Shown here: positions 25,614 to 35,491 of the stretch, in pieces
Layout of the letters: each line of letters starts with the position of its first letter
Position numbering within the stretch: position 1 is the stretch's first letter
IMG/VR virus record: IMGVR_UViG_2671180778_000014
Coordinates: 1-35,491 of that record
DNA from: a virus
Lineage: Duplodnaviria > Heunggongvirae > Uroviricota > Caudoviricetes
DNA length: 35,491 nucleotides
Reading direction: 5' to 3' (one strand)
Translations under genes and position numbers: made by a program
The notes under the pieces: model-generated
Database searches by the model: none
What the model saw: only the letters and a program-made list of their open reading frames with translations
Told to the model about the DNA's origin: nothing

Positions 25614-27518
25614 TTAGAACGATGTTACCCAGCTACGGCCTCTATTTGGGCGTCTGGCGATGTTTTTACGTTGTGGTCGTGTGATTGGCTTATTTTCTTC
25701 GATTTGCTCGTCAGATTGCGTTTCAGGAGCTTTTACGGGTTCTTCTGGTTCACGGTTCAAACTATCTTTGATGGCTTCGAGTTTTTCCCATGACATTTTA
25801 TTGAGTACATGGCGAGAAGCAGCATAGGAATAAGCCAGGCAGTCGAGAGCCTCGTTTCGTTGCTGACCAACTTTTACCCAACGTGTGGTATTACCCTGCC
25901 GTTTCAACTGTTCAGAAAGCAATTGCTCGCAATAGTCATCAGGAACGTCACCAATCTGGAAGACAGTGTGAGGATCTCCATCTCTCAAGTTCCGGTTAAT
26001 CATTTCGCGGATCATCGTCTTAAGGTTGTTTACGCCCAGAATTTTAAGGGTAAAACCACCTGTTCTTGTGTCTTTTACCGGAAGGATTGGAGCATCAACA
26101 TTGCTTGCGCCCTTAATGGCTGATAGGTTTTGCCACCGACTACAAAAGCGGTAGATCACTTGCGTAGCACGTCCGTTTGATGAGTCCACGAAAGCGGATA
26201 GCATCGGGATTCGTTGACCGGATCGGGTATAGAATTTAGCTTTCAGGAAGTTGTAAAGCTGGTCATATGCTGGTGATTCGTGGCGTTCGCAGTTCACATC
26301 ATAGAATGATCGGTGATCAACTACGCATATCCCTTTACGCGAGATACCCAGCAAGGTAGATTCCAGACGGTCTTTTTGCTGGTCAACTCCACCTACCAGA
26401 GCCAGAACATCATCAGGGATATTGTCTAAGCTAATATCAGTTTTCAGCGTTTCCAGTTCGTCGGCTGTGCGGTCTTCGTTAAGATCATCGAAGGTTTCAC
26501 CTAAGACAGTGTTATAGAACGTTGCCAGTGACATATTCGCGTAGCTATCAGCAAAATCCACCACACACGCACGGATAGAACTAAACGGAGACATAAGGCG
26601 GTTAGCATGAAAACCGATTACTTCCGCATTAGGTTCGGTGGCGATCCATTCTCCCTTAGCAACAGCACGTAGGCGATCCCCTTCGGTCCAGTCGGTTTCA
26701 CATTCAGGGCAACGATAAACGGCTGTGTCGGGCGAAGGCAGTGATTTACCATTAACTTGATGCCAATCAAAATGGACGTTACTCCATTCCATTACGTGTC
26801 TGTGTCCGCAATGCTGGCATGGAACATAGTATTTTCGTTTATCTGATAGCTCGAATTGTTGGTTGATCGCCCCATCTCGCGACGTTGGAGTAGAAGCAAT
26901 TACGATCCGTGCATCTTCCCCGAAAGTGGTTGCTCGTTGTTCCGCTAGCTGGATCGGGTTCCCTTCATCTGATTCATCAGCCGCATCAACTTCATCAAGA
27001 ATAATCAAAGGCAGTGTCTTACCGCGCAAGTGTGATGGACTGTTCAGCGACATGAAATACATGAATGATCCGTTACGAAGCTGAATAATCGATGAGTTGT
27101 TAACAGCATTACGGTCTGATTTGTCGGTGATCATCGCTTTTAATTCTGGCGTAGCCTCTAATACTGGCTTCACCTTACCAGCGATCCAAGAATTTAGTTC
27201 TCTAACGTTTGATTGCAACACCCCTATATTCGTAGGGTTACTGGCGATCCTGTGGAAGATAATTCCGTTAAGAATCATAGTCTTACCCAACTGCGCCGAA
27301 CATTTAAACACAATTTTTCTACGGTCTTCGGTGATCGCGTCCATCATTCCACGTTGGAAGGGATGCAATTTAATTAGAGATCCGGCTTTAACGCCATCGG
27401 TAGCCACTACGTTAGCCTCTACCCATTCGCTAGGTTTCATGGCTTTAGGCGGTCGAATTGCAGCAGAGATATTTTTAAGAATCTTTTTTAATTTAGCCTT
27501 ATTAGAAATCAGTTTCAT
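25614..27518 (-). CDS. terminase large subunit (lambda gpA family)
   Basis: 634 aa; N-terminal PSEWVEANVV ... LHPFQRGMMDA and C-terminal RNEALDCLAYSYAA match the recalled lambda gpA pattern (AVEWADANYY ... LPFQRAIMNA ... RRNEALDCFVYALAA); Walker A-like QLGKT. Confidence 0.85.
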   Translation of the reverse strand: MKLISNKAKLKKILKNISAAIRPPKAMKPSEWVEANVVATDGVKAGSLIKLHPFQRGMMDAITEDRRKIVFKCSAQLGKTMILNGIIFHRIASNPTNIGVLQSNVRELNSWIAGKVKPVLEATPELKAMITDKSDRNAVNNSSIIQLRNGSFMYFMSLNSPSHLRGKTLPLIILDEVDAADESDEGNPIQLAEQRATTFGEDARIVIASTPTSRDGAINQQFELSDKRKYYVPCQHCGHRHVMEWSNVHFDWHQVNGKSLPSPDTAVYRCPECETDWTEGDRLRAVAKGEWIATEPNAEVIGFHANRLMSPFSSIRACVVDFADSYANMSLATFYNTVLGETFDDLNEDRTADELETLKTDISLDNIPDDVLALVGGVDQQKDRLESTLLGISRKGICVVDHRSFYDVNCERHESPAYDQLYNFLKAKFYTRSGQRIPMLSAFVDSSNGRATQVIYRFCSRWQNLSAIKGASNVDAPILPVKDTRTGGFTLKILGVNNLKTMIREMINRNLRDGDPHTVFQIGDVPDDYCEQLLSEQLKRQGNTTRWVKVGQQRNEALDCLAYSYAASRHVLNKMSWEKLEAIKDSLNREPEEPVKAPETQSDEQIEENKPITRPQRKNIARRPNRGRSWVTSF

Positions 27519-27605: not shown

Positions 27606-28211
27606 ATGCTAATTAATCAGCAACAAAGAGATGTATTAGAATTAGCCTTTTCTTGTTGTACCGATCATGAATATCGTTTGCCAGTTAAGCACCATCACAA
27701 GAAGACTGATTACACAACATCCGGCTTTAGTCGCGAGGAAGCTAAACAGATTTTAATCGAGTTGTATCGTGATCATGGGTATACCGATATTCATAACTTC
27801 TTTAAGAAGCACCGAACATCACAGACAGAGTTTAATAGAGTCCGTGAATGGTTTGATTTTGACATTAAGCGATTCTATCGAGTGGATGACGGTCCAATCT
27901 ATCGGTTGCAGTGGACACCGATTAGGGAAGTGCTTAAACAGAAGAGATTGAATCATGCCATTACACGCTATCGTAACGTGGCTTTTAAGAAAGGCTATGG
28001 TGATACAAGGGAACTATTCGTTGAACTCGCTAACGTGCGATATAGCCACTATTACAGGAATCCTAAAGAGTTCTTCGAAGTGCTGCGCAAGGTTGATATA
28101 AGTCGGGGTACATACTATTCACGGTTGAAGAAGTACGGGATTAAGGCAGAGTTCTTTATGTCGGTTGACGATGGAGAACTTTTTCCGATAAAATGTAAGT
28201 CCTCTAAATAA
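27606..28211 (+). CDS. hypothetical DNA-binding protein with C-terminal HTH
   Basis: 201 aa; C-terminal FEVLRKVDISRGTYYSRLKKYGI is HTH-like; RBS AAGGGGG; divergent from the terminase gene. Confidence 0.5.
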   Translation: MLINQQQRDVLELAFSCCTDHEYRLPVKHHHKKTDYTTSGFSREEAKQILIELYRDHGYTDIHNFFKKHRTSQTEFNRVREWFDFDIKRFYRVDDGPIYRLQWTPIREVLKQKRLNHAITRYRNVAFKKGYGDTRELFVELANVRYSHYYRNPKEFFEVLRKVDISRGTYYSRLKKYGIKAEFFMSVDDGELFPIKCKSSK

Positions 28212-28239: not shown

Positions 28240-28473
28240 ATGACTATGACTACTAAAGCTACTCGCGGTCGCCCTGCCCGTTTTAACGCTGAACAGATGG
28301 CTGATATTGCCTACGCTTACTATACAGCGGATCGCGGGAAGGAAGCGAAAGAACAGATTCTTAGTGAACATGGGATCTCAATCGCCCAATTCTATAAGAA
28401 TATGAAGAAGTTAGACATTAAATTCTATGTTCAGATCGGTGATGGTCAGATCGTAGAAGCAACAGGTTTTTGA
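28240..28473 (+). CDS. small HTH protein resembling a terminase small-subunit N-terminal DNA-binding domain
   Basis: 77 aa; TRGRPARFNAEQMADIAYAYY ... GISIAQFYKNMKK fits the GRPxK(F/Y) + HTH pattern of some small terminase N-termini (Sf6 gp1-like as recalled). Confidence 0.5.
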   Translation: MTMTTKATRGRPARFNAEQMADIAYAYYTADRGKEAKEQILSEHGISIAQFYKNMKKLDIKFYVQIGDGQIVEATGF

Positions 28474-28558: not shown

Positions 28559-29029
28559 TCATACTTTGATTCGGACAAACTTGCATCCTAACTCATTTTC
28601 AATTCTTCGTTGACGGATCTCGTCTTGCTCTTTCTTGTACTGGTGTTCTGGTTCATCAATTTCATAAGCTATATTATTAACCGGATCATAACCATCAATT
28701 CGATAGTTTAACACCCGACACTGGCGAATCAGGTTGATACCTAAAACTTGTTCTATAGTGTTAAGAGCAATCTTTTCGGCAGTAGATAAACCAAAACGTA
28801 AGCCGTTATAGCGTTTATACATCGCATCTGCTAATTGTCCACACAGCATATAGTGACACTTTTTTCGATTTTGGGAATCTACATACACAGATTCAACAAA
28901 AGCAATTCCTGTATTTTTAGAAACTAACCTAACGTCACGCAAAACATCTTGATGTCTCTTTCCAAATTCTTTAGCCAAATCCAGAGAGCTAATCTGTTCT
29001 TTTTCTAATTGTAATGCAGCATTTCCCAT
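28559..29029 (-). CDS. Rha-type N-terminal domain protein with small C-terminal nuclease-like domain
   Basis: LAKEFGKRHQDVLRDVRLV matches the Rha regulatory domain signature; C-terminal YDPVNNIAYEIDEPEH ... KFVRIK has acidic residues compatible with an endonuclease-like fold (tentative). Confidence 0.5.
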   Translation of the reverse strand: MGNAALQLEKEQISSLDLAKEFGKRHQDVLRDVRLVSKNTGIAFVESVYVDSQNRKKCHYMLCGQLADAMYKRYNGLRFGLSTAEKIALNTIEQVLGINLIRQCRVLNYRIDGYDPVNNIAYEIDEPEHQYKKEQDEIRQRRIENELGCKFVRIKV

Positions 29030-30451: not shown

Positions 30452-30919
30452 TTACAGCATATCTAAGCCTTCATCGTAACCGTAGAAGCTATTGTGAGAA
30501 GAAAAACAGATTGGTGCGTAGTCTTCGTCTTCCTCGTCTTCTTCATCTTGTTCTGGGGCTTCCTGAGCGGTTTCTTTGCCGTAGTTAAACATTGCTTCAT
30601 CCAGTTCATAGACAGTAACGAAGCTACCTAAATCAATGTCACCTGACCGGACTTCGAAAGGCAGATCATCACGAACAATAATTGCTGGTAGATTCTGGTA
30701 TTTCAGGCGATCTTCATCGGTGAAGCAGTTAACAACGATGGTAGGACGTTTATTTCTTCCGAAAACATACCATGCACTAGAGAAATGGGATTCATCGGTA
30801 TTGTAAAGGATGTTATAACCACGTTCACGGAACATCTTCATTAACTTGTCATTGTGAAAGCTATCTGCATCCAGACCCAGAAGGATAAAAGGAGTAGTGG
30901 TAGTCATTTTGTGGTTCAT
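30452..30919 (-). CDS. hypothetical acidic protein
   Basis: ATG at 30919 preceded by GAGGA with 8-nt spacer; C-terminal EQDEEDEEDEDY acidic tail. Confidence 0.5.
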   Translation of the reverse strand: MNHKMTTTTPFILLGLDADSFHNDKLMKMFRERGYNILYNTDESHFSSAWYVFGRNKRPTIVVNCFTDEDRLKYQNLPAIIVRDDLPFEVRSGDIDLGSFVTVYELDEAMFNYGKETAQEAPEQDEEDEEDEDYAPICFSSHNSFYGYDEGLDML

Positions 30920-30965
30920 AGTGGTAATCCTCAAAAAGAAAGTTAATCAAAGTAATTCTGATATT

Positions 30966-30972
30966 ATTTATA
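30966..30972 (-). promoter_or_regulatory. candidate -10 element (TATAAAT) of recurring promoter motif
   Basis: minus-strand CTCTTATAAATAATA about 50 nt upstream of the start at 30919. Confidence 0.3.
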
Positions 30973-31224
30973 AGAGAAAATTCTTGATGATTTTGGAAGG
31001 GATGGATTCAGTCGGGCTAAAGCCCTCCTTCATAGATTTGATTAAAAGACCAGCAAACGTAACTCGGATCTTATAGTTAATATAGTTATCTTTGAAGAAA
31101 TAATAATCAGGAAGCAATTTCAGCAACCGCAGGTTGCGATCCCGAAGGGATAACCAATACCTTTCTAGAAAGTGATTGTTACTCACTTCGTTCGTTTACT
31201 AGAATCAGTTATCATCTAGTATTA

Positions 31225-31595
31225 AATCCCTTTCTAAGAAAATCCTTTCAAAAGTGAGTGAACGCCGTAGGCGTGAACGTGAGCGAAGCGAACTATCCAA
31301 TCCCTTTCGAATCCTGCTTGCAGGTCTTAGAAGGTGTTGGTGGGCGCTACGCGCACGGCTACGCCGTATTCTTTTTGCGAGATCTTTCTTGAACGTAGTG
31401 AGAGAAAGCGAGCAAAAAGGAGAACGTTAGTTCGAATTTTATATTCTATGGTCTGTTGGGTATAATCCCTTTCAAGATCATACACTTACGTGATTGAAGT
31501 GTAGGGTTAGTGTAGGTGTGTAGGTTTCATAGTGTAGGTTTGAGAGTGTTATAGTGTAGGTTTACTGGCTAGTGTAGTGTAGGCCAATCCCTTTA
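31225..31595 (+). repeat. dispersed direct repeats of the 10-mer AATCCCTTT(C/A)
   Basis: copies at 31225, 31299, 31464 and 31586, a degenerate copy at 31241, and an inverted copy at 35108-35117. Confidence 0.6.
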
Positions 31596-31617
31596 AAGTG
31601 TAGGTGTGTAGTGTAGG
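31499..31617 (+). repeat. iteron array of the heptamer GTGTAGG (about 10 copies, mostly GTGTAGGTT)
   Basis: copies at 31499, 31510, 31518, 31532, 31554, 31577, 31598, 31611 plus GTGTAGT variants at 31572 and 31606, followed by an AT-rich stretch. Confidence 0.7.
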
Positions 31618-31813
31618 TTTTCTATCAAAAATTTTGACAAAAATTATTGTATATTATTTAACCAAAAAATCACCAAAAAGCGGCGTAAATTCATGATTTA
31701 AAAGAAATTTTCAAAAGATCTCCGTGCCATAATAGGTTATAAAGGTTGATAATCATTATTTGCCATTTTCAAACAAAAATTTTGATACACTTTTCTCGCT
31801 TAGATCATTGGTA

Positions 31814-31842
31814 TTGACAAGTGTCAAGAACTATTTTATACT
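31814..31842 (+). promoter_or_regulatory. consensus sigma70 promoter (TTGACA - 17 nt - TATACT)
   Basis: TTGACA at 31814-31819, 17-nt spacer, TATACT at 31837-31842. Confidence 0.6.
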
Positions 31843-31849
31843 TTTTCTC

Positions 31850-32007
31850 ACTGGTAGGGGTTGAAATTTTCCAAACAATCCACATATAGATGATAAGCAT
31901 GATTTTTTCGTGTATAAATACATGCATGAAAAATGATTGTTCACTTCTGAAAACCTCCTGACTCACTGTTAACTCATACAGCACTGGTTAGATACACAGT
32001 GCTTTTT
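31850..32007 (+). ncRNA. candidate small non-coding RNA (promoter-to-terminator unit)
   Basis: about 160 nt between the consensus promoter and an intrinsic terminator (AGCACTG ... CAGTGCT + TTTTT at 31980-32007); no RBS-supported ORF. Confidence 0.3.
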
Positions 32008-32131
32008 CGGTTGAATATTGTACGGATTGATTAATTATTAATCTTCTCTTTAGCAATTCGTGCTCCCTCTGATCGGATATACAGTGGTTTTACAGAGTTT
32101 TTGAAAATCATTTTTATAAATAGAATTGTTC

Positions 32132-32150
32132 AGAGCGAAAAGCTCTTTTT
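32132..32150 (+). terminator. terminator/attenuator hairpin
   Basis: AGAGC-gaaa-GCTCT followed by TTTTT, 35 nt upstream of the 60-aa gene. Confidence 0.4.
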
Positions 32151-32186
32151 AAAAAAATCATTATTCCAGATTTAGGAGGATTCAAG

Positions 32187-32369
32187 ATGGCACGACCTGT
32201 TAAGTTCACTCGTGAAATCGTTTTAGAAATGGCAAAGCGTTATTTTGAACTGACACCTGATGTAGTGATGGGTGATTGGTTTAAAGGTGAAGGCATTGAT
32301 CAATCAACCTTCCATAAACTTTTAAAGAAGTATGAAATTCGCGTAAAGATTACCGCCGAGGTGTGGTAA
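32187..32369 (+). CDS. small HTH protein (paralog of the 77-aa protein)
   Basis: 60 aa; ARPVKFTREIVLEMAKRY ... GIDQSTFHKLLKKY parallels RGRPARFNAEQMADIAYAYY ... GISIAQFYKNMKK; RBS AGGAGG. Confidence 0.5.
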   Translation: MARPVKFTREIVLEMAKRYFELTPDVVMGDWFKGEGIDQSTFHKLLKKYEIRVKITAEVW

Positions 32370-32413
32370 TAACCTTTGACTGAGAATTATATGATGGCTT
32401 TAAAAATAAAAAA

Positions 32414-32441
32414 GCCTCCCTGTTGGCGCAAGGAGGCTTTT
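32414..32441 (+). terminator. rho-independent terminator
   Basis: GCCTCC-ctgttggcgcaa-GGAGGC followed by TTTT. Confidence 0.5.
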
Positions 32442-32486
32442 GATATGAACAATTAAAACTAACACAGCATTCAGGAGTATTTATAA

Positions 32487-33488
32487 ATGAAAAATTCTAA
32501 GCGCATCACCTTCAACCTGTTCATTAAATCCAACGGCAAACTGAACATTACCGTTATGGAAGGTAAAGCAAGCAAACAAGACAAATCCTTTGAAGTAGTA
32601 TCCGGTAAGACTCTGACCGAAATGCGTCAGAATGCTGGCATCAAAGACGGTGCTGAATGGCAGATCACTAACCGTTTCGACAAACGTCACGTTAAACCTA
32701 CACTGGTAGAAGGTGAATCCGTTTATTGCTTCGCTCGTGCTGTTAAAGCCGATGAAACTTACTATCTCGCTGTTATTAAAACTGCTTCCGGTTTCCGTGC
32801 TGTAATGCATCACAAGAGCAAGCGTAACGAATACGGCGTAGAGACCCAGGAAGTTGCAAAACGCTTCCGTACTGTTGCTACTGAATCCACTGTAAAAGAT
32901 GTTTCTGGTACTGTTAACACCGCTAAAGGCGGTTCCTTCTACAACCACGCATTACAGGTTACTTCCTCCTTCTTCTGCAAAAAAGAAGCACAGAAAGAAG
33001 TTGCTCCGGTAGTAGTTGAAGAAGTTAAAGAAGAAGTAGCAGTGGTTGAATCTTCCGAAGTTGAAGCACTGAAAGCACGCATCGCTGAACTGGAAGCTGA
33101 AAACGCATCTCTGAAAGCTGAACTGGCAGCACAGGAAACCACTTTCGAAGTAGCAGCGGTTGAAGTTGAAGCAGTTGAAGAAAAATCCATTGATGAAGAA
33201 CTGGAAGAACTCCTTAACTATCGCTGGGGTAACGGTGAAGAAGTAGAACAGGAAGAACAGAAAGAAGCTGATCCGGTAGTAGTTCCGGTTGAAGCAGAAT
33301 CCGCACCAGTTACTAACTTTGAATCCCTGCGCAATAACTTTATGGCTAAATTCAAAACCACTTGGGAAGATACCGAAGAAGAACAAGAAGAGATTGATGT
33401 AAACGAAGACGAGATCCGCGAAGCACAGATGGCACTGCATGACGCTATCTATGACACCAACTACAGCGCCTACGCATACGCAGCTTAA
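32487..33488 (+). CDS. acidic coiled-coil protein with host-optimal codon usage (function unknown)
   Basis: 333 aa; N-terminal ~170-aa Lys/Thr-rich domain, then EALKARIAELEAENASLKAELAAQ coiled coil and acidic tail; codons are almost exclusively E. coli high-expression choices (CTG, CGT, GGT, GCT, TCC, AAC, GAA), unlike the rest of the window. Confidence 0.6.
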   Translation: MKNSKRITFNLFIKSNGKLNITVMEGKASKQDKSFEVVSGKTLTEMRQNAGIKDGAEWQITNRFDKRHVKPTLVEGESVYCFARAVKADETYYLAVIKTASGFRAVMHHKSKRNEYGVETQEVAKRFRTVATESTVKDVSGTVNTAKGGSFYNHALQVTSSFFCKKEAQKEVAPVVVEEVKEEVAVVESSEVEALKARIAELEAENASLKAELAAQETTFEVAAVEVEAVEEKSIDEELEELLNYRWGNGEEVEQEEQKEADPVVVPVEAESAPVTNFESLRNNFMAKFKTTWEDTEEEQEEIDVNEDEIREAQMALHDAIYDTNYSAYAYAA

Positions 33489-33503
33489 TAGAGGGGTGAA
33501 TCT

Positions 33504-33746
33504 ATGATGAATCAAAACAAAGAATTTCTGGGTAACTTGATGTTAGAAATTACCAAAATGAAAGAAAGAATGGTAGCGATGGAATCAGAGATTAAAACTC
33601 TTAAAGCTGATAATAAGGCGTTGAGAAAGTCCTTAAAGCTGATTGATGAGACTAATGCTGTTATGATGGATCATGTATTCCCTGAGTGGCGAAATGAAAC
33701 TAAACCTACACAACATAAGAAACCTACACTTCGAATTGTTGCATAA
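33504..33746 (+). CDS. small coiled-coil protein
   Basis: 80 aa; RBS GAGGGGTG; heptad-like KERMVAMESEIKTLKADNKALRKSLKLI. Confidence 0.5.
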   Translation: MMNQNKEFLGNLMLEITKMKERMVAMESEIKTLKADNKALRKSLKLIDETNAVMMDHVFPEWRNETKPTQHKKPTLRIVA

Positions 33747-33768
33747 AAAAGGGACTCCGAAGAGTCCC
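33745..33768 (-). terminator. terminator hairpin (minus-strand orientation, possibly bidirectional)
   Basis: GGGACTC-cgaa-GAGTCCC preceded by AAAAAA on the plus strand, which gives a T-run on the minus strand. Confidence 0.4.
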
Positions 33769-34454: not shown

Positions 34455-35006
34455 TTACGACACATCAAATTCATCGTCTTCTTCTGGTTCTTGTTCCGGT
34501 TCATCCATTAATGGTAATTCTTCTTCCTCGTCTTCTCCCAAATCTGCATTTTCGAACAAGTCCCCTACTTCATTTAAACGACGCTCGATGATCTCCCTTA
34601 GCTTATTCTTCAATGTTTTCTGGTCAGTGGCAGATTCGAGAATTTCTAAAGCGTCGATTGTGGCGATCTGCAAAATAGTCTGCTTCACTTTTCCGCAATA
34701 TTCCGCTAGTTGCTGTTCTACATACCCGACCGGAATCAGGAGATTCATTGCTTCCTGGTTCTCTCGTTCGGCTGCGTCCGCTAATGCTCTCTCGCGGCGT
34801 AATTTCTCTACGTCAATTTGTTCCTTGACAGTAGTTTCCTTGAGCGGGTTGATGATATTTTTTAATACCCACTCGGTCCCCTCTTTGGCTGGTACGCGTC
34901 GTGTATTGGTATTAAATGGCATTCCTCGTTCTTGCCATTTCTTAGCGGCGTTAATTGTATAGCCGTATAAGCGGGAAATTTCTGTAAGGGTTAATTCTTC
35001 TTTCAT
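34455..35006 (-). CDS. terminase small subunit candidate (lambda Nu1-like winged HTH)
   Basis: ATG at 35006 preceded by GGAGG; LTLTEISRLYGYTINAAKKWQERGMPF parallels the recalled Nu1 N-terminus (QLADIFGASIRTIQNWQEQGMPV); about 180 aa with acidic C-terminus. Confidence 0.45.
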   Translation of the reverse strand: MKEELTLTEISRLYGYTINAAKKWQERGMPFNTNTRRVPAKEGTEWVLKNIINPLKETTVKEQIDVEKLRRERALADAAERENQEAMNLLIPVGYVEQQLAEYCGKVKQTILQIATIDALEILESATDQKTLKNKLREIIERRLNEVGDLFENADLGEDEEEELPLMDEPEQEPEEDDEFDVS

Positions 35007-35491
35007 CCGGTTATCCTCCATTAAATTTGCGTAAAATTATTTATCTGATCTGCGCATTCAGGAGAGCGCCTAAAACGCTTTATAACGAAGGGAAAGATCG
35101 AGGCGGGGAAAGGGATTGGCTGGTGTTAATAGTCGCGTAGCGACCGCGCTGGTGGGCTGCACTGCACCTGTTTTGAAATCTCACACGCACATCAAAAACC
35201 GGGGTGCCGAAAACTCGCTTTATTTCACCCGTGGAACAGTACCTTTTGATTTTGTCAAGTCTTTTTTATAAATAATCGAAAATATTTTTCACACGAGGGC
35301 AAATCATGAATACTAAAGATATTAAGATTGACTTTGAAACTGTTGATGACGTTCGGGAACATCGCATTGATTCTACTGGCTGAATCTTCCAGCTTACTAA
35401 CCCCCCTATTGGATTGATTATCTATGTAGCAGAAGATGACGTGTACGCTATATGGGATGGACAGGATGAGTTTAAAGGCGGGAATAGCCAT

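What the first reader, a model, noticed from the sequence alone, without database searches (positions are those of the whole stretch)
31200..31700. Iteron array (GTGTAGG x ~10) plus AATCCCTTTC repeats and an AT-rich stretch in a ~1.2 kb non-coding region
About 10 direct copies of GTGTAGG(TT) lie within 120 bp, flanked by four copies of AATCCCTTT(C/A) and followed by an AT-rich stretch and strong promoters. This is the classical layout of an iteron-type replication origin, though it could equally be a binding array for a regulator or packaging protein. An inverted AATCCCTTTC copy also sits upstream of the Nu1-like gene (35108-35117).
Basis: seen in the sequence. Interest (0 to 1): 0.7.

Follow-up and report, generated by a model that had tools for sequence, protein, structure and literature searches.

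The report
Phage repeat array with matched binding protein
The GTGTAGG repeats are real and are almost certainly docking sites for a previously undescribed DNA-binding protein encoded 0.9 kb away; the pair forms a portable module, most likely a replication origin with its initiator, that occurs with at least six different repeat/protein specificities in temperate E. coli prophages and in a T4-like phage.

Summary
There are 8 exact GTGTAGG copies plus 2 overlapping GTGTAG, all on the + strand, at 31499-31617, inside a 1,252-bp non-coding region of an E. coli prophage.

In about 60 related loci the same position carries an array, but the repeated word differs. I found GTGTAGG, CGGGGA, GGGGCAA, GTGCAGG, ATGCYA and AGCGATT. 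The word always matches the N-terminal domain type of one gene, the 333-aa coiled-coil protein at 32487-33488. No other neighbouring gene co-varies, and the small terminase does not.

All array types are phased at 10.5-11.3 bp, which means binding on one face of double-stranded DNA. The protein has no Pfam, PHROG, PDB-sequence or fold match.

The whole cassette also sits in a virulent T4-like phage contig. The cassette is hairpins, array, promoter, a small gene (orf60), a terminator, and the binding protein. Its presence there argues against a lysogeny repressor.

The packaging idea is rejected: the AATCCCTTTC copy near TerS is not conserved.

That the array binds this protein I hold at about 0.85. 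That the module is the origin plus initiator is the best single reading at about 0.4. No other replication gene is recognisable in the prophage. However, there are no DnaA boxes, the protein belongs to no known Rep family, and nothing shows initiation there. Rivals are an autoregulatory or regulatory array and a centromere-like tethering site.

The parts
31499..31617 (+). Array of 8 exact GTGTAGG plus 2 overlapping GTGTAG repeats. The extended unit is about tAGTGTAGGTTt. This is the inferred binding array of the 333-aa protein.
   Evidence: locate and count the copies. Phasing: best period 11.2 bp, R 0.83, null 0.0125. The single strand has no secondary structure (z +0.79).
31240..31620 (.). 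Type-specific island 1: hairpin block, array, and AATCCCTTTC copies. It cannot be aligned with types B or C (35-47% identity), while the flanks are 84-96% identical.
   Evidence: Identity profile and alignment.
31254..31370 (.). G+C-rich block of small triloop hairpins or an imperfect inverted repeat: ACGCC-GTA-GGCGT, GC-GAA-GC, GCGC-TAC-GCGC, ACGGC-TAC-GCCGT. Every array type, including the T4-like cassette, has an analogous block next to its array.
   Evidence: Sequence. DNA folds give z -2.0 and -2.4. Analogous blocks appear. The role is unknown.
31105..31160 (.). Two conserved mini-hairpins, GCAACC-GCA-GGTTGC and ATCCC-GAA-GGGAT, in the type-independent left part of the non-coding region.
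   Evidence: Fold z -2.5. Locus L010 replaces the first with GACGCTCT-CC-AGAGCGTC, which keeps a hairpin.
31225..31233 (+). AATCCCTTT box 1. It is conserved in types A and C, and present as AAATCCCTTC in type B, so it is type-independent.
31299..31307 (+). AATCCCTTT box 2, found in type A only.
31464..31472 (+). AATCCCTTT box 3. It is exact only in the window and in L002 and L003; other type-A loci read AAATATCTTTC or AAATGTCTTTC.
31586..31594 (+). AATCCCTTT box 4, inside the GTGTAGG array and conserved in type A.
31620..31800 (.). A+T-rich block (27.5-30% G+C) holding two copies of the palindrome TATCAAAAATTTTGA (31623-31637 and 31774-31787). Types A, B and C share it when they carry leader version 1. 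It is absent in version-2 relatives.
   Evidence: (repeat I14).
31814..31842 (+). Near-consensus sigma-70 promoter TTGACA-17-TATACT, driving the orf60 / 333-aa operon.
   Evidence: 11 of 12 matches. It is conserved in leader version 1. This is a consensus match only; no start site has been mapped.
31849..32186 (+). Untranslated leader with two terminator-like hairpins (31979-32008 and 32132-32150).
   Evidence: Sequence. It is conserved in relatives and exists in two alternative versions that are not linked to array type.
32187..32369 (+). orf60, a small protein (MARPVKFTRE...) that belongs to the cassette but is not type-specific. It is paralogous to the 77-aa and 201-aa proteins at 28240-28473 and 27606-28211.
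   Evidence: That it is a helix-turn-helix protein is my reading, not a tested result.
32410..32441 (.). Strong bidirectional intrinsic terminator between orf60 and the 333-aa gene.
32487..33488 (+). The 333-aa cognate protein. It has a beta-rich N-terminal domain of about 170 aa (the specificity domain), a coiled coil, an acidic linker, and a short conserved C-terminus ending in AA. This is type-specific island 2.
   Evidence: Co-variation. Orphan status. AF2 model of residues 1-185: pLDDT 79, pTM 0.76. No fold match.
33504..33746 (+). orf80, an 80-aa coiled-coil protein that accompanies type A. An 80-aa gene sits in the same position in the T4-like cassette; similarity between the two was not tested.
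   Evidence: It carries two minus-strand GTGTAGG copies at 33705 and 33723.
35109..35117 (-). Inverted AATCCCTTT upstream of TerS. I judge it unrelated to the array module.
   Evidence: present in only one TerS-upstream variant and not linked to array type.

Best explanation
The GTGTAGG array is the cis-acting docking site of the phage's own 333-aa protein (32487-33488). That protein has a new beta-rich N-terminal DNA-binding domain followed by a coiled coil. Several copies, probably coiled-coil dimers, would bind side by side on one face of the double helix, because the sites are spaced at multiples of about 11 bp. The resulting nucleoprotein complex would sit next to hairpin-forming G+C-rich DNA and, in this phage, an A+T-rich block, just upstream of the promoter of the operon that encodes the protein.

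The module (hairpins, array, promoter, orf60, terminator, binding protein) most likely works like an iteron origin with its initiator. The bound array would mark and destabilise the origin and recruit a helicase. The same binding would probably feed back on the module's own promoter.

- **Shown:** the array, its phasing, the exclusive co-variation with this protein, and the portability of the cassette.
- **Inferred:** physical binding (about 0.85).
- **Guess:** that the complex starts replication (about 0.4).
For: 1. **The array is real and non-random**.
2. **Same place, different word.** Related loci carry a different repeated word there: A GTGTAGG, B CGGGGA, C GGGGCAA.
3. **Only one gene co-varies.** Among eight neighbouring genes, only the 333-aa gene follows array type: identity within types 0.89, between types 0.25 (maximum 0.30). 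All the others reach 0.90-1.00 between types.
4. **The rule has no exception** in 20 loci from complete E. coli genomes, 28 IMG/VR loci and 11 metagenome loci.
5. **Graded specificity.** A 78%-identical domain (P0121) keeps GTGTAGG with the same spacing. A 46%-identical one (P0123) uses the related GTGCAGG. A 30%-identical one (P0127) uses AGCGATT. The Edwardsiella type D uses ATGCYA.
6. **Two separated islands.** The array and the gene are two divergent islands (30-58% identity) separated by about 450 bp that is 84-95% identical between types. Their linkage is therefore maintained across recombination.
7. **Helical phasing.** Every array type is phased at 10.5-11.3 bp (6 of 7 arrays p <= 0.025). 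The array strand has no structure of its own. Both point to double-stranded DNA binding.
8. **No alternative replication gene.** No other gene of the roughly 36-kb prophage matches a replication protein.
9. **Origin-like surroundings.** A+T-rich DNA and hairpins adjoin the array.
10. **Classic Rep-promoter arrangement in one relative.** In the T4-like cassette an inverted copy of the repeat abuts the -35 of the operon promoter.
11. **Precedent.** T4-type phages are known to carry iteron clusters at an origin (oriE) whose role is still undefined (PMC3016281).
Against: - There are no DnaA boxes, IHF sites or GATC clusters.
- The conserved core is 7 bp and the spacing is irregular (8-23 bp), unlike 17-22 bp iterons.
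- The protein matches no Rep family and no known fold. It has no conserved His, Tyr or Asp that would suggest catalysis.
- The A+T-rich block is not part of the type-specific module and is missing in relatives with the alternative leader.
- A T4-like phage has its own replication system, so there the cassette could only be an accessory origin, or something else entirely.
- The gene lies behind a terminator and two leader hairpins. That arrangement fits a delayed-early gene but proves nothing.
- No experimental data of any kind exist.
Confidence: 0.4

Rival explanations
1. Regulatory array. The 333-aa protein would be a transcription regulator that binds the array to control the adjacent divergent early promoters, by autoregulation, as an enhancer or silencer, or as the type-specific switch or immunity determinant. 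It would have no role in replication.
For: - The array lies directly upstream of the operon promoter. It is about 200 bp upstream in this window and within about 25 bp in version-2 relatives and in the T4-like cassette, where an inverted repeat abuts the -35.
- Among all early genes, only this protein/site pair shows discrete specificity types. In lambdoid phages that pattern is typical of immunity modules (established knowledge).
- An N-terminal DNA-binding domain, a coiled coil and a C-terminal tail ending in AA recall the Mu repressor layout and its ClpXP-sensitive tail (my own knowledge, not tested).
Against: - Eight to seventeen same-strand phased repeats in a single cluster are unlike dyad operators at several promoters.
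- No second cluster exists elsewhere in the prophage.
- The cassette occurs in a virulent T4-like phage, which has no lysogeny to maintain.
- E. coli BS74R-D carries two prophages with the identical 313-aa protein and array type. That is unexpected for an immunity determinant.
- The gene sits behind terminators rather than in a constitutively expressed position.
Confidence: 0.27
2. Centromere-like or tethering site. The phased array, bound by a coiled-coil DNA-binding protein, would position or tether the phage DNA. It would work like parC/ParR, the stbDR/StbA repeats of plasmid R388, or omega-protein heptad arrays, during a non-integrated phase.
For: The array has 10-17 direct repeats at about 11-bp phasing. 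In type B they form two clusters separated by about 60 bp. They lie upstream of the operon that encodes the binder. This is the layout of parC and stbDR (established knowledge). The cassette is self-contained and portable.
Against: - No ParA, ParM or TubZ type NTPase lies in or near the cassette.
- All E. coli copies are integrated in chromosomes and none is on a plasmid.
- The phage has a serine integrase.
- The binder is not a ribbon-helix-helix or helix-turn-helix protein of the known centromere-binding families.
Confidence: 0.12
3. Accessory module for competition. The cassette would be a mobile 'moron' whose protein acts in competition between phages or with the host, for example exclusion or counter-defence. 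The array would serve only to set the protein's own dose.
For: The cassette sits as an insertion among structural genes in a T4-like genome, in a region that also holds Imm, Acb1 and RegB-type accessory genes. It is a discrete terminator-bounded unit. It has long acidic tails.
Against: No match in the PADLOC-independent searches I ran (PADLOC itself was not searched). Simple dose control would not need 8-17 phased sites plus hairpins conserved in every type. In the prophages the cassette occupies the central early region, not a peripheral moron slot.
Confidence: 0.1
4. Packaging signal. The repeats would be binding sites for the small terminase (cosB- or pac-like), linked to the AATCCCTTTC copy upstream of the TerS gene.
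For: The TerL is of the lambda gpA type, so a cos site with TerS-binding repeats must exist somewhere. One inverted AATCCCTTT lies upstream of TerS.
Against: TerS does not co-vary with the array: between-type identity reaches 0.97. The TerS-upstream AATCCCTTTC occurs in only one upstream variant. That variant includes type-B loci whose non-coding region has no such motif. The array is 2.8 kb from TerS and 4 kb from TerL.
Confidence: 0.03
5. RNA-level function. The G-rich repeats would be transcribed and act as an R-loop primer (ColE1- or T4 oriF-like) or as a protein-sponge RNA.
For: GC skew is strong (+0.44) over the array, and all motifs are G-rich on one strand. T4 origins use R-loops (PMC3016281).
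Against: - The only promoter-like site upstream of the array (31438-31466) is not conserved among type-A relatives.
- Phasing at 10.5-11.3 bp is a property of the double helix.
- Type F (AGCGATT) and type D (ATGCYA) are not G-rich.
- There is no Rfam match.
Confidence: 0.04

Closest known systems
Iteron origins with adjacent Rep genes (P1 oriR/RepA, F ori2/RepE, pSC101, R6K gamma/pi; lambda ori/O as the phage counterpart)
   Same: Several same-orientation, helically phased repeats. A specificity-matched binding protein encoded next to them. The repeats lie upstream of the protein's own promoter. A+T-rich DNA is nearby. Discrete specificity types co-vary between site and protein, as with the lambdoid O/ori types.
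   Different: The conserved core is only 7 bp (about 12 bp with flanks) and the spacing is irregular. No DnaA or IHF sites are present. The protein has no similarity in sequence or fold to Rep_3, RepA, pi or lambda O. The array is 0.9 kb upstream of the gene, separated from it by a leader, a small gene and a terminator. No initiation has been shown.
[quoted passage not shown]
   Same: A cluster of short direct repeats beside an early-type promoter in a phage genome. One cassette of the present family sits in a T4-like genome a few kb from the gene 5 region.
   Different: No homolog of the cassette proteins was found by tblastn in any of 50,697 deposited phage genomes, T4 included. I could not compare the T4 repeat sequence because the original paper is not held.
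Centromere-like arrays: R1 parC/ParR, R388 stbDR/StbA, pSM19035 omega heptads
   Same: Ten or more short direct repeats at roughly 11-bp (or heptad) spacing. They are sometimes arranged in two clusters. They lie upstream of the operon that encodes the binder, which autoregulates.
   Different: There is no partner NTPase. The elements are integrated prophages or a lytic phage. The binder is a 200-377 aa protein with a beta-rich domain and a coiled coil, not a small ribbon-helix-helix or helix-turn-helix protein.
Mu-type repressor/operator region
   Same: An N-terminal DNA-binding domain, a coiled coil for oligomerisation, and a C-terminal tail that could be a protease tag. Many asymmetric sites are clustered between divergent early operons.
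   Different: There is no sequence or fold similarity. The module is present in a virulent phage. Two prophages with an identical protein type co-reside in one genome.
PUR-alpha / Whirly-type purine-strand binding domains
   Different: The scores are far below significance. Treat this as a lead only.

Membership tests
Iteron-type replication origin | Several direct repeats in one orientation, phased with the DNA helix | tested here: met
   8 exact copies plus 2 partial, all on the + strand. Best period 11.2 bp, R 0.83, null 0.0125. The same holds in 6 other arrays of 5 other or related types.
Iteron-type replication origin | Repeat unit of about 17-22 bp | tested here: not met
   The conserved core is 7 bp, about 12 bp with flanks (tAGTGTAGGTTt). 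Spacing is 8-23 bp.
Iteron-type replication origin | A cognate binding protein encoded next to the repeats, with matched specificity | tested here: met
   There is exclusive co-variation with the 333-aa gene in all loci examined, and divergence of motif tracks divergence of protein. Binding itself is inferred, not measured.
Iteron-type replication origin | The binding protein belongs to a known initiator family (Rep_3, RepA, pi, lambda O, etc.) | tested here: not met
Iteron-type replication origin | An adjacent A+T-rich unwinding region | tested here: inconclusive
   It is present here (31620-31800, 27.5-30% G+C). However, it belongs to a type-independent block that is absent in relatives with the alternative leader.
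Iteron-type replication origin | Host-factor sites (DnaA boxes, IHF) | tested here: not met
   No DnaA box within 1 mismatch lies near the array, and no IHF consensus was found, in 8 loci.
Iteron-type replication origin | Replication initiates at the site | not testable with these tools
   This needs marker-frequency analysis, 2D gels or a plasmid-replication assay.
Terminase recognition site (cosB / pac) | The repeats are bound by the small terminase, so they should track the TerS type and lie by the terminase genes | tested here: not met
   TerS identity between array types reaches 0.97. The array is 2.8 kb from TerS. The AATCCCTTTC near TerS is not conserved.
Plasmid-type centromere (parC/ParR, stbDR/StbA) | A phased direct-repeat array upstream of the operon that encodes the binder | tested here: met
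Plasmid-type centromere (parC/ParR, stbDR/StbA) | A partner NTPase and an extrachromosomal lifestyle | tested here: not met
   No NTPase lies in the cassette or the prophage. All copies are chromosomal and there are no plasmid hits.
Temperate-phage immunity repressor and operators | Dyad-symmetric operators overlapping the early promoters at more than one site | tested here: not met
   All copies are direct and lie in one cluster. No other cluster exists in the prophage.
Temperate-phage immunity repressor and operators | Restricted to temperate phages, and co-resident prophages differ in type | tested here: not met
   The cassette occurs in a T4-like virulent phage contig. BS74R-D carries two prophages with the identical protein. 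This is weak evidence, because there are only two double lysogens.

The most novel reading that the evidence does not exclude
A previously unrecognised, self-contained 'array plus reader' cassette moves between temperate siphoviruses of Enterobacteriaceae and virulent T4-like phages. It consists of hairpins, a phased repeat array, a promoter, orf60, and a protein with a new beta-rich DNA-binding fold and a coiled coil. It has diversified into at least six DNA specificities. It would act as a portable, host-factor-independent replication origin or DNA-organising centre, with an initiator class unrelated to any known Rep protein.
Probability: 0.35. Interest if true: 0.75.

Novelty: new variant of a known kind. 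Interest (0 to 1): 0.6.

Why it matters
This prophage family occurs in about 1% of complete E. coli genomes (64 of 5,426) and has no recognisable replication or immunity gene. Pinning a cis site to its reader gives the first handle on how these phages are controlled.

It has only a handful of relatives among 1.8 billion representative proteins and no fold match. It comes with a natural series of six protein/word pairs, which is an unusually clean system for working out a recognition code.

If the module is an origin, it would be a new initiator class. It might also shed light on the unexplained iteron cluster at T4 oriE. If it is not an origin, then a portable phased array shared by temperate and lytic phages points to a function not yet described in phage biology.

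Tried and rejected
- **DNA searches.** Searches of the non-coding region against 50,697 phage records (near and distant) and 72,556 plasmids found nothing.
- **tRNA and Rfam.** Nothing found.
- **Species-representative genomes.** The scan with orf60 found nothing.
- **Profile search of the protein collection.** A profile of types B, C and D returned only 2 proteins. The word pre-filter was probably swamped by coiled-coil words.
- **Structure prediction.** The single-sequence AF2 model of the full protein was poor (pLDDT 46). A 7-sequence alignment of the N-terminal domain rescued it.
- **AlphaFold-database fold library.** Not available.
- **Literature.** Searches for the motif and for hicB prophages were uninformative. 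The original T4 oriE paper is not held.
- **Cassette proteins in deposited phages and plasmids.** tblastn found none.
- **TerS, orf60, the 160-aa left gene, Rha, and the 77-aa and 201-aa proteins as array reader.** Rejected, because none co-varies.
- **A promoter at 31438-31466 transcribing the array.** Rejected, because its -10 is not conserved.
- **A coding role for the 72-aa ORF at 30968-31186.** Rejected because of frame-breaking indels in relatives.
- **HUH-type or other nuclease function for the protein.** Rejected, because no His, Tyr or Asp is conserved across types.
- **G-quadruplex formation as the common feature.** Rejected, because only types B and C have G runs.
Full report
**What the window is.**
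- The window is almost a whole E. coli prophage of about 36 kb. A 96.9%-identical copy is integrated in hicB of strain PRO_A-1412-6M-A.
- Read in window coordinates, it has a large serine integrase (996-2690), followed by lysis, tail and head genes.
- A lambda gpA-type large terminase lies on the minus strand up to 27518.
- A 7-kb early-like region follows, and then a small terminase at 34455-35021 (phrog_57).
- Nothing in the prophage matches a replication protein or a repressor.
- The finding lies in the 1,252-bp non-coding gap (30935-32186) between a leftward operon (160-aa gene, 110-aa gene, Rha) and a rightward operon (orf60, the 333-aa gene, orf80).

**The observation.**
- GTGTAGG occurs 13 times in the window against 2.05 expected. 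Eight exact copies lie on the + strand within 31499-31617, and two overlapping GTGTAG copies bring the count to ten.
- AATCCCTTT occurs exactly five times against 0.41 expected: four on the + strand at 31225, 31299, 31464 and 31586, and one on the - strand at 35109.
- The stretch to the right is 27.5-30% G+C.
- An 11-of-12 sigma-70 match lies at 31814-31842.
- No tRNA or Rfam family is present.

**Comparative analysis of the array.**
- The non-coding region has no DNA match in deposited phages or plasmids. It is present in 57 complete E. coli chromosomes, and the wider early region in 64 of 5,426 genomes.
- In 17 fetched relatives the gap is always non-coding and about 1.2-1.45 kb long.
- At the place of the GTGTAGG array, some relatives carry 12-17 copies of CGGGGA and no GTGTAGG at all. 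Others carry about 9 copies of (TTTC)AGGGGCAA(AAAT).
- I call these types A, B and C.

**Which gene follows the array.**
- I compared eight neighbouring genes within and between types.
- Only the 333-aa gene at 32487-33488 follows the array: mean identity 0.89 within types, 0.25 between types, and never above 0.30.
- The 201-aa, 77-aa, Rha, 110-aa, 160-aa, orf60 and TerS genes all reach 0.90-1.00 identity between types.
- The three protein types share an architecture: a variable N-terminal domain of about 170 aa, an FF motif, a coiled coil, an acidic linker and a short conserved C-terminus.
- An identity profile shows two divergent islands, 31200-31620 and 32450-33750 (30-58% identity). About 450 bp that is 84-95% identical between types separates them, followed by orf60 at about 72%.
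- The array and the gene therefore stay matched although recombination has shuffled what lies between and around them.

**Extending the test.**
- An orf60-anchored scan gave 29 IMG/VR loci and 14 metagenome loci.
- Every locus that holds both features obeys the rule: MKNSKRITF... with GTGTAGG, MKQNNFSIT... with CGGGGA, MLFSANFF... with GGGGCAA. Two further E. coli loci also obey it.
- One IMG/VR locus, whose protein is from Edwardsiella tarda, has a fourth protein type and a fourth array: about 12 copies of TTCRRATGCYA at 21-bp spacing.
- An exhaustive phmmer search of the N-terminal domain against 1.84 billion representatives found only seven hits, three of them real.
- The contexts of those three hits give a graded series:

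| Protein | Identity to the window N-terminal domain | Array |
|---|---|---|
| P0121 | 78% | GTGTAGG with the same spacing pattern |
| P0123 | 46% | TTAGTGCAGGG, a related word |
| P0127 | 30% | AGCGATT(AC), about ten copies |

- Divergence of the protein therefore parallels divergence of the word. This is what a reader and its site would show.

**Geometry.**
- In every type the copies are spaced at multiples of about 11 bp. The best period is 10.5-11.3 bp with R 0.53-0.86.
- Six of seven arrays beat position-shuffled nulls at p <= 0.025.
- The array strand has no secondary structure of its own.
- This indicates binding on one face of double-stranded DNA. It argues against an RNA-level role, as does the absence of a conserved upstream promoter.

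**The protein.**
- Pfam, PHROGs and PDB sequence searches give only coiled-coil noise.
- The homologs found are all unnamed Escherichia or Shigella proteins.
- AF2 on a single sequence failed. With a 7-sequence alignment the N-terminal 185 residues fold with pLDDT 79 and pTM 0.76 into a beta-rich domain made of three beta-meanders with helices.
- PUR-alpha recurs among the weak matches. I record that only as a lead.
- No His, Tyr or Asp is conserved across types, so a nuclease role is unlikely.
- Most C-termini end in AA (YAYAA, RRAA, GLAA, DFAA). This resembles a ClpXP tag, but that is my own reading and is untested.

**The cassette is portable.**
- P0127 lies in 168-169-kb T4-like contigs, between a tail-related gene (weak gp19-family match) and gp2, near gp53, gp5, gp6, RegB, Imm and Acb1.
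- The whole unit is there: G+C-rich triloop hairpins, the AGCGATT array, an inverted copy of the repeat abutting a TTGACA -35, an orf60 homolog (47% identical), a terminator, the 204-aa protein, a terminator, and an 80-aa gene in the position orf80 occupies here.
- Neither protein is found in any of 50,697 deposited phage genomes or 72,556 plasmids.

**Packaging.**
- TerS does not co-vary with the array.
- The inverted AATCCCTTTC upstream of TerS is present in only one of three TerS-upstream variants. That variant occurs with both type A and type B arrays, and type B non-coding regions have no AATCCCTTT.
- I reject the link.
- The AATCCCTTTC boxes inside the non-coding region are partly type-independent. 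The 31225 copy is shared by A, B and C. They may be sites for a type-independent factor such as orf60, but I did not test this.

**What it does.**
- That the array binds the 333-aa protein is strongly supported by inference (about 0.85).
- Function is less certain. The evidence for and against an origin, and each rival with its own evidence and refutation test, is set out in the best-explanation and rival-explanation sections.
- In brief, three things favour an origin: the iteron-like phased array with a matched adjacent protein, the neighbouring hairpins and A+T-rich DNA, and the lack of any other replication candidate in an evidently active phage family. That family uses three integration sites and is found in 64 genomes.
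- The precedent of unexplained iterons at T4 oriE (PMC3016281) makes an accessory origin in a T4-like phage conceivable.
- The main points against an origin are the absence of DnaA or IHF sites, the short core, the unknown protein family, and an A+T-rich block that is not part of the module.
- A lysogeny repressor is made unlikely by the T4-like occurrence and by strain BS74R-D. That strain carries two prophages with the identical 313-aa protein and array type.
- A more general regulatory role, a centromere-like tethering role (the layout resembles parC and stbDR, but no NTPase is present), or an accessory competitive function remain open.
- My probabilities are: origin 0.4, regulator 0.27, tethering 0.12, accessory 0.1, RNA-level 0.04, packaging 0.03.

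**Novelty.** The kind of feature, a repeat array with a cognate binder, is classical. The protein family, its fold, the six natural specificity pairs, and the cassette shared by temperate and T4-like phages are new as far as these databases and the searchable literature show.

Noticed in passing
window 1-35491; L002 25540-25921: The window is a nearly complete prophage integrated in hicB. Relatives of the same family sit in ycdX and in a cytosine-permease gene, so the serine integrase (996-2690) or its variants use at least three target genes.
   Followed up: partly
window 25614-27518 and 34455-35021: The gpA-type large terminase and the small terminase are 7 kb apart, with the whole early-like region between them. 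The cos site was not located. A G+C-rich conserved stretch upstream of TerS (about 35030-35250) is a candidate.
   Followed up: no
window 32187-32369, 28240-28473, 27606-28211: There are three paralogous small proteins or domains: orf60, the 77-aa protein, and the C-terminus of the 201-aa protein (BLASTP E 1e-4 and 0.009). They share an (A/G)RP.(K/R)F arm and a G(I)..s.F.K..KKy.I motif. I read them as possible helix-turn-helix regulators. In the Edwardsiella relative the three genes lie in tandem.
   Followed up: partly
window 31849-32186: The leader of the rightward operon holds two terminator-like hairpins (31979-32008 and 32132-32150) before orf60. A strong bidirectional terminator (32410-32441) precedes the 333-aa gene. 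This suggests control by antitermination or attenuation. The leader exists in two unrelated versions that are not linked to array type.
   Followed up: partly
window 31623-31637 and 31774-31787: Two copies of the palindrome TATCAAAAATTTTGA lie 150 bp apart and flank an extended -10-like TGCCATAAT (31725-31733). Types A, B and C conserve them when leader version 1 is present. They are operator-like.
   Followed up: no
window 31013-31367: There is a run of small hairpins with 3-4 nt loops (GCA, GAA, GTA, TAC, TAAA), including the very stable GCGAAGC motif. One is replaced in locus L010 by a different sequence that still forms a hairpin. Analogous hairpins precede the array in every type, including the T4-like cassette.
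   Followed up: partly
window 32697, 33705, 33723 (minus strand): Three further GTGTAGG copies lie in inverted orientation inside the 333-aa gene and at the 3' end of orf80. The first two are kept in all type-A loci and the 33723 copy in four of nine. They could be extra binding sites, or they could simply be carried along with the coding sequence.
   Followed up: partly
L008, L016-L018, L048, L049, L058, L059, L064 (array region): Type-C loci with leader version 2 also carry 2-3 GTGTAGG copies between the GGGGCAA array and the promoter. This is a hybrid array that looks like a recombination scar between types.
   Followed up: partly
window 33470-33488 and homologs: Proteins of the family mostly end in AA (YAYAA, RRAA, GLAA, DFAA; not types C and D), reminiscent of an ssrA-like ClpXP tag. 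The 160-aa left gene (30452-30934) also has a long acidic tail ending in DEGLDML.
   Followed up: no
L001 (GenBank PQ671644, Escherichia phage DCP80) 1-26000: This 141-kb record is classified as Straboviridae. It starts with a lambda-like terminase, portal and capsid block (43% aa identity to this prophage's capsid) and continues with T4-type genes (motA, rIIA, ndd). It may be a chimeric assembly.
   Followed up: no
L012 and L049 (E. coli UTME-9); L016 and L048 (E. coli BS74R-D): Two double lysogens were found. UTME-9 has a type A and a type C prophage that share identical TerL, 201-aa, 77-aa and Rha proteins, which suggests recent exchange between residents. BS74R-D has two type C prophages, in hicB and ycdX, with identical 313-aa and orf60 proteins.
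   Followed up: partly
window 28559-29029: A 156-aa protein combines an N-terminal Rha-like segment with a C-terminal DUF559 / restriction-endonuclease-like segment. The matches are weak (E 0.003-0.004). It is absent from most relatives.
   Followed up: no
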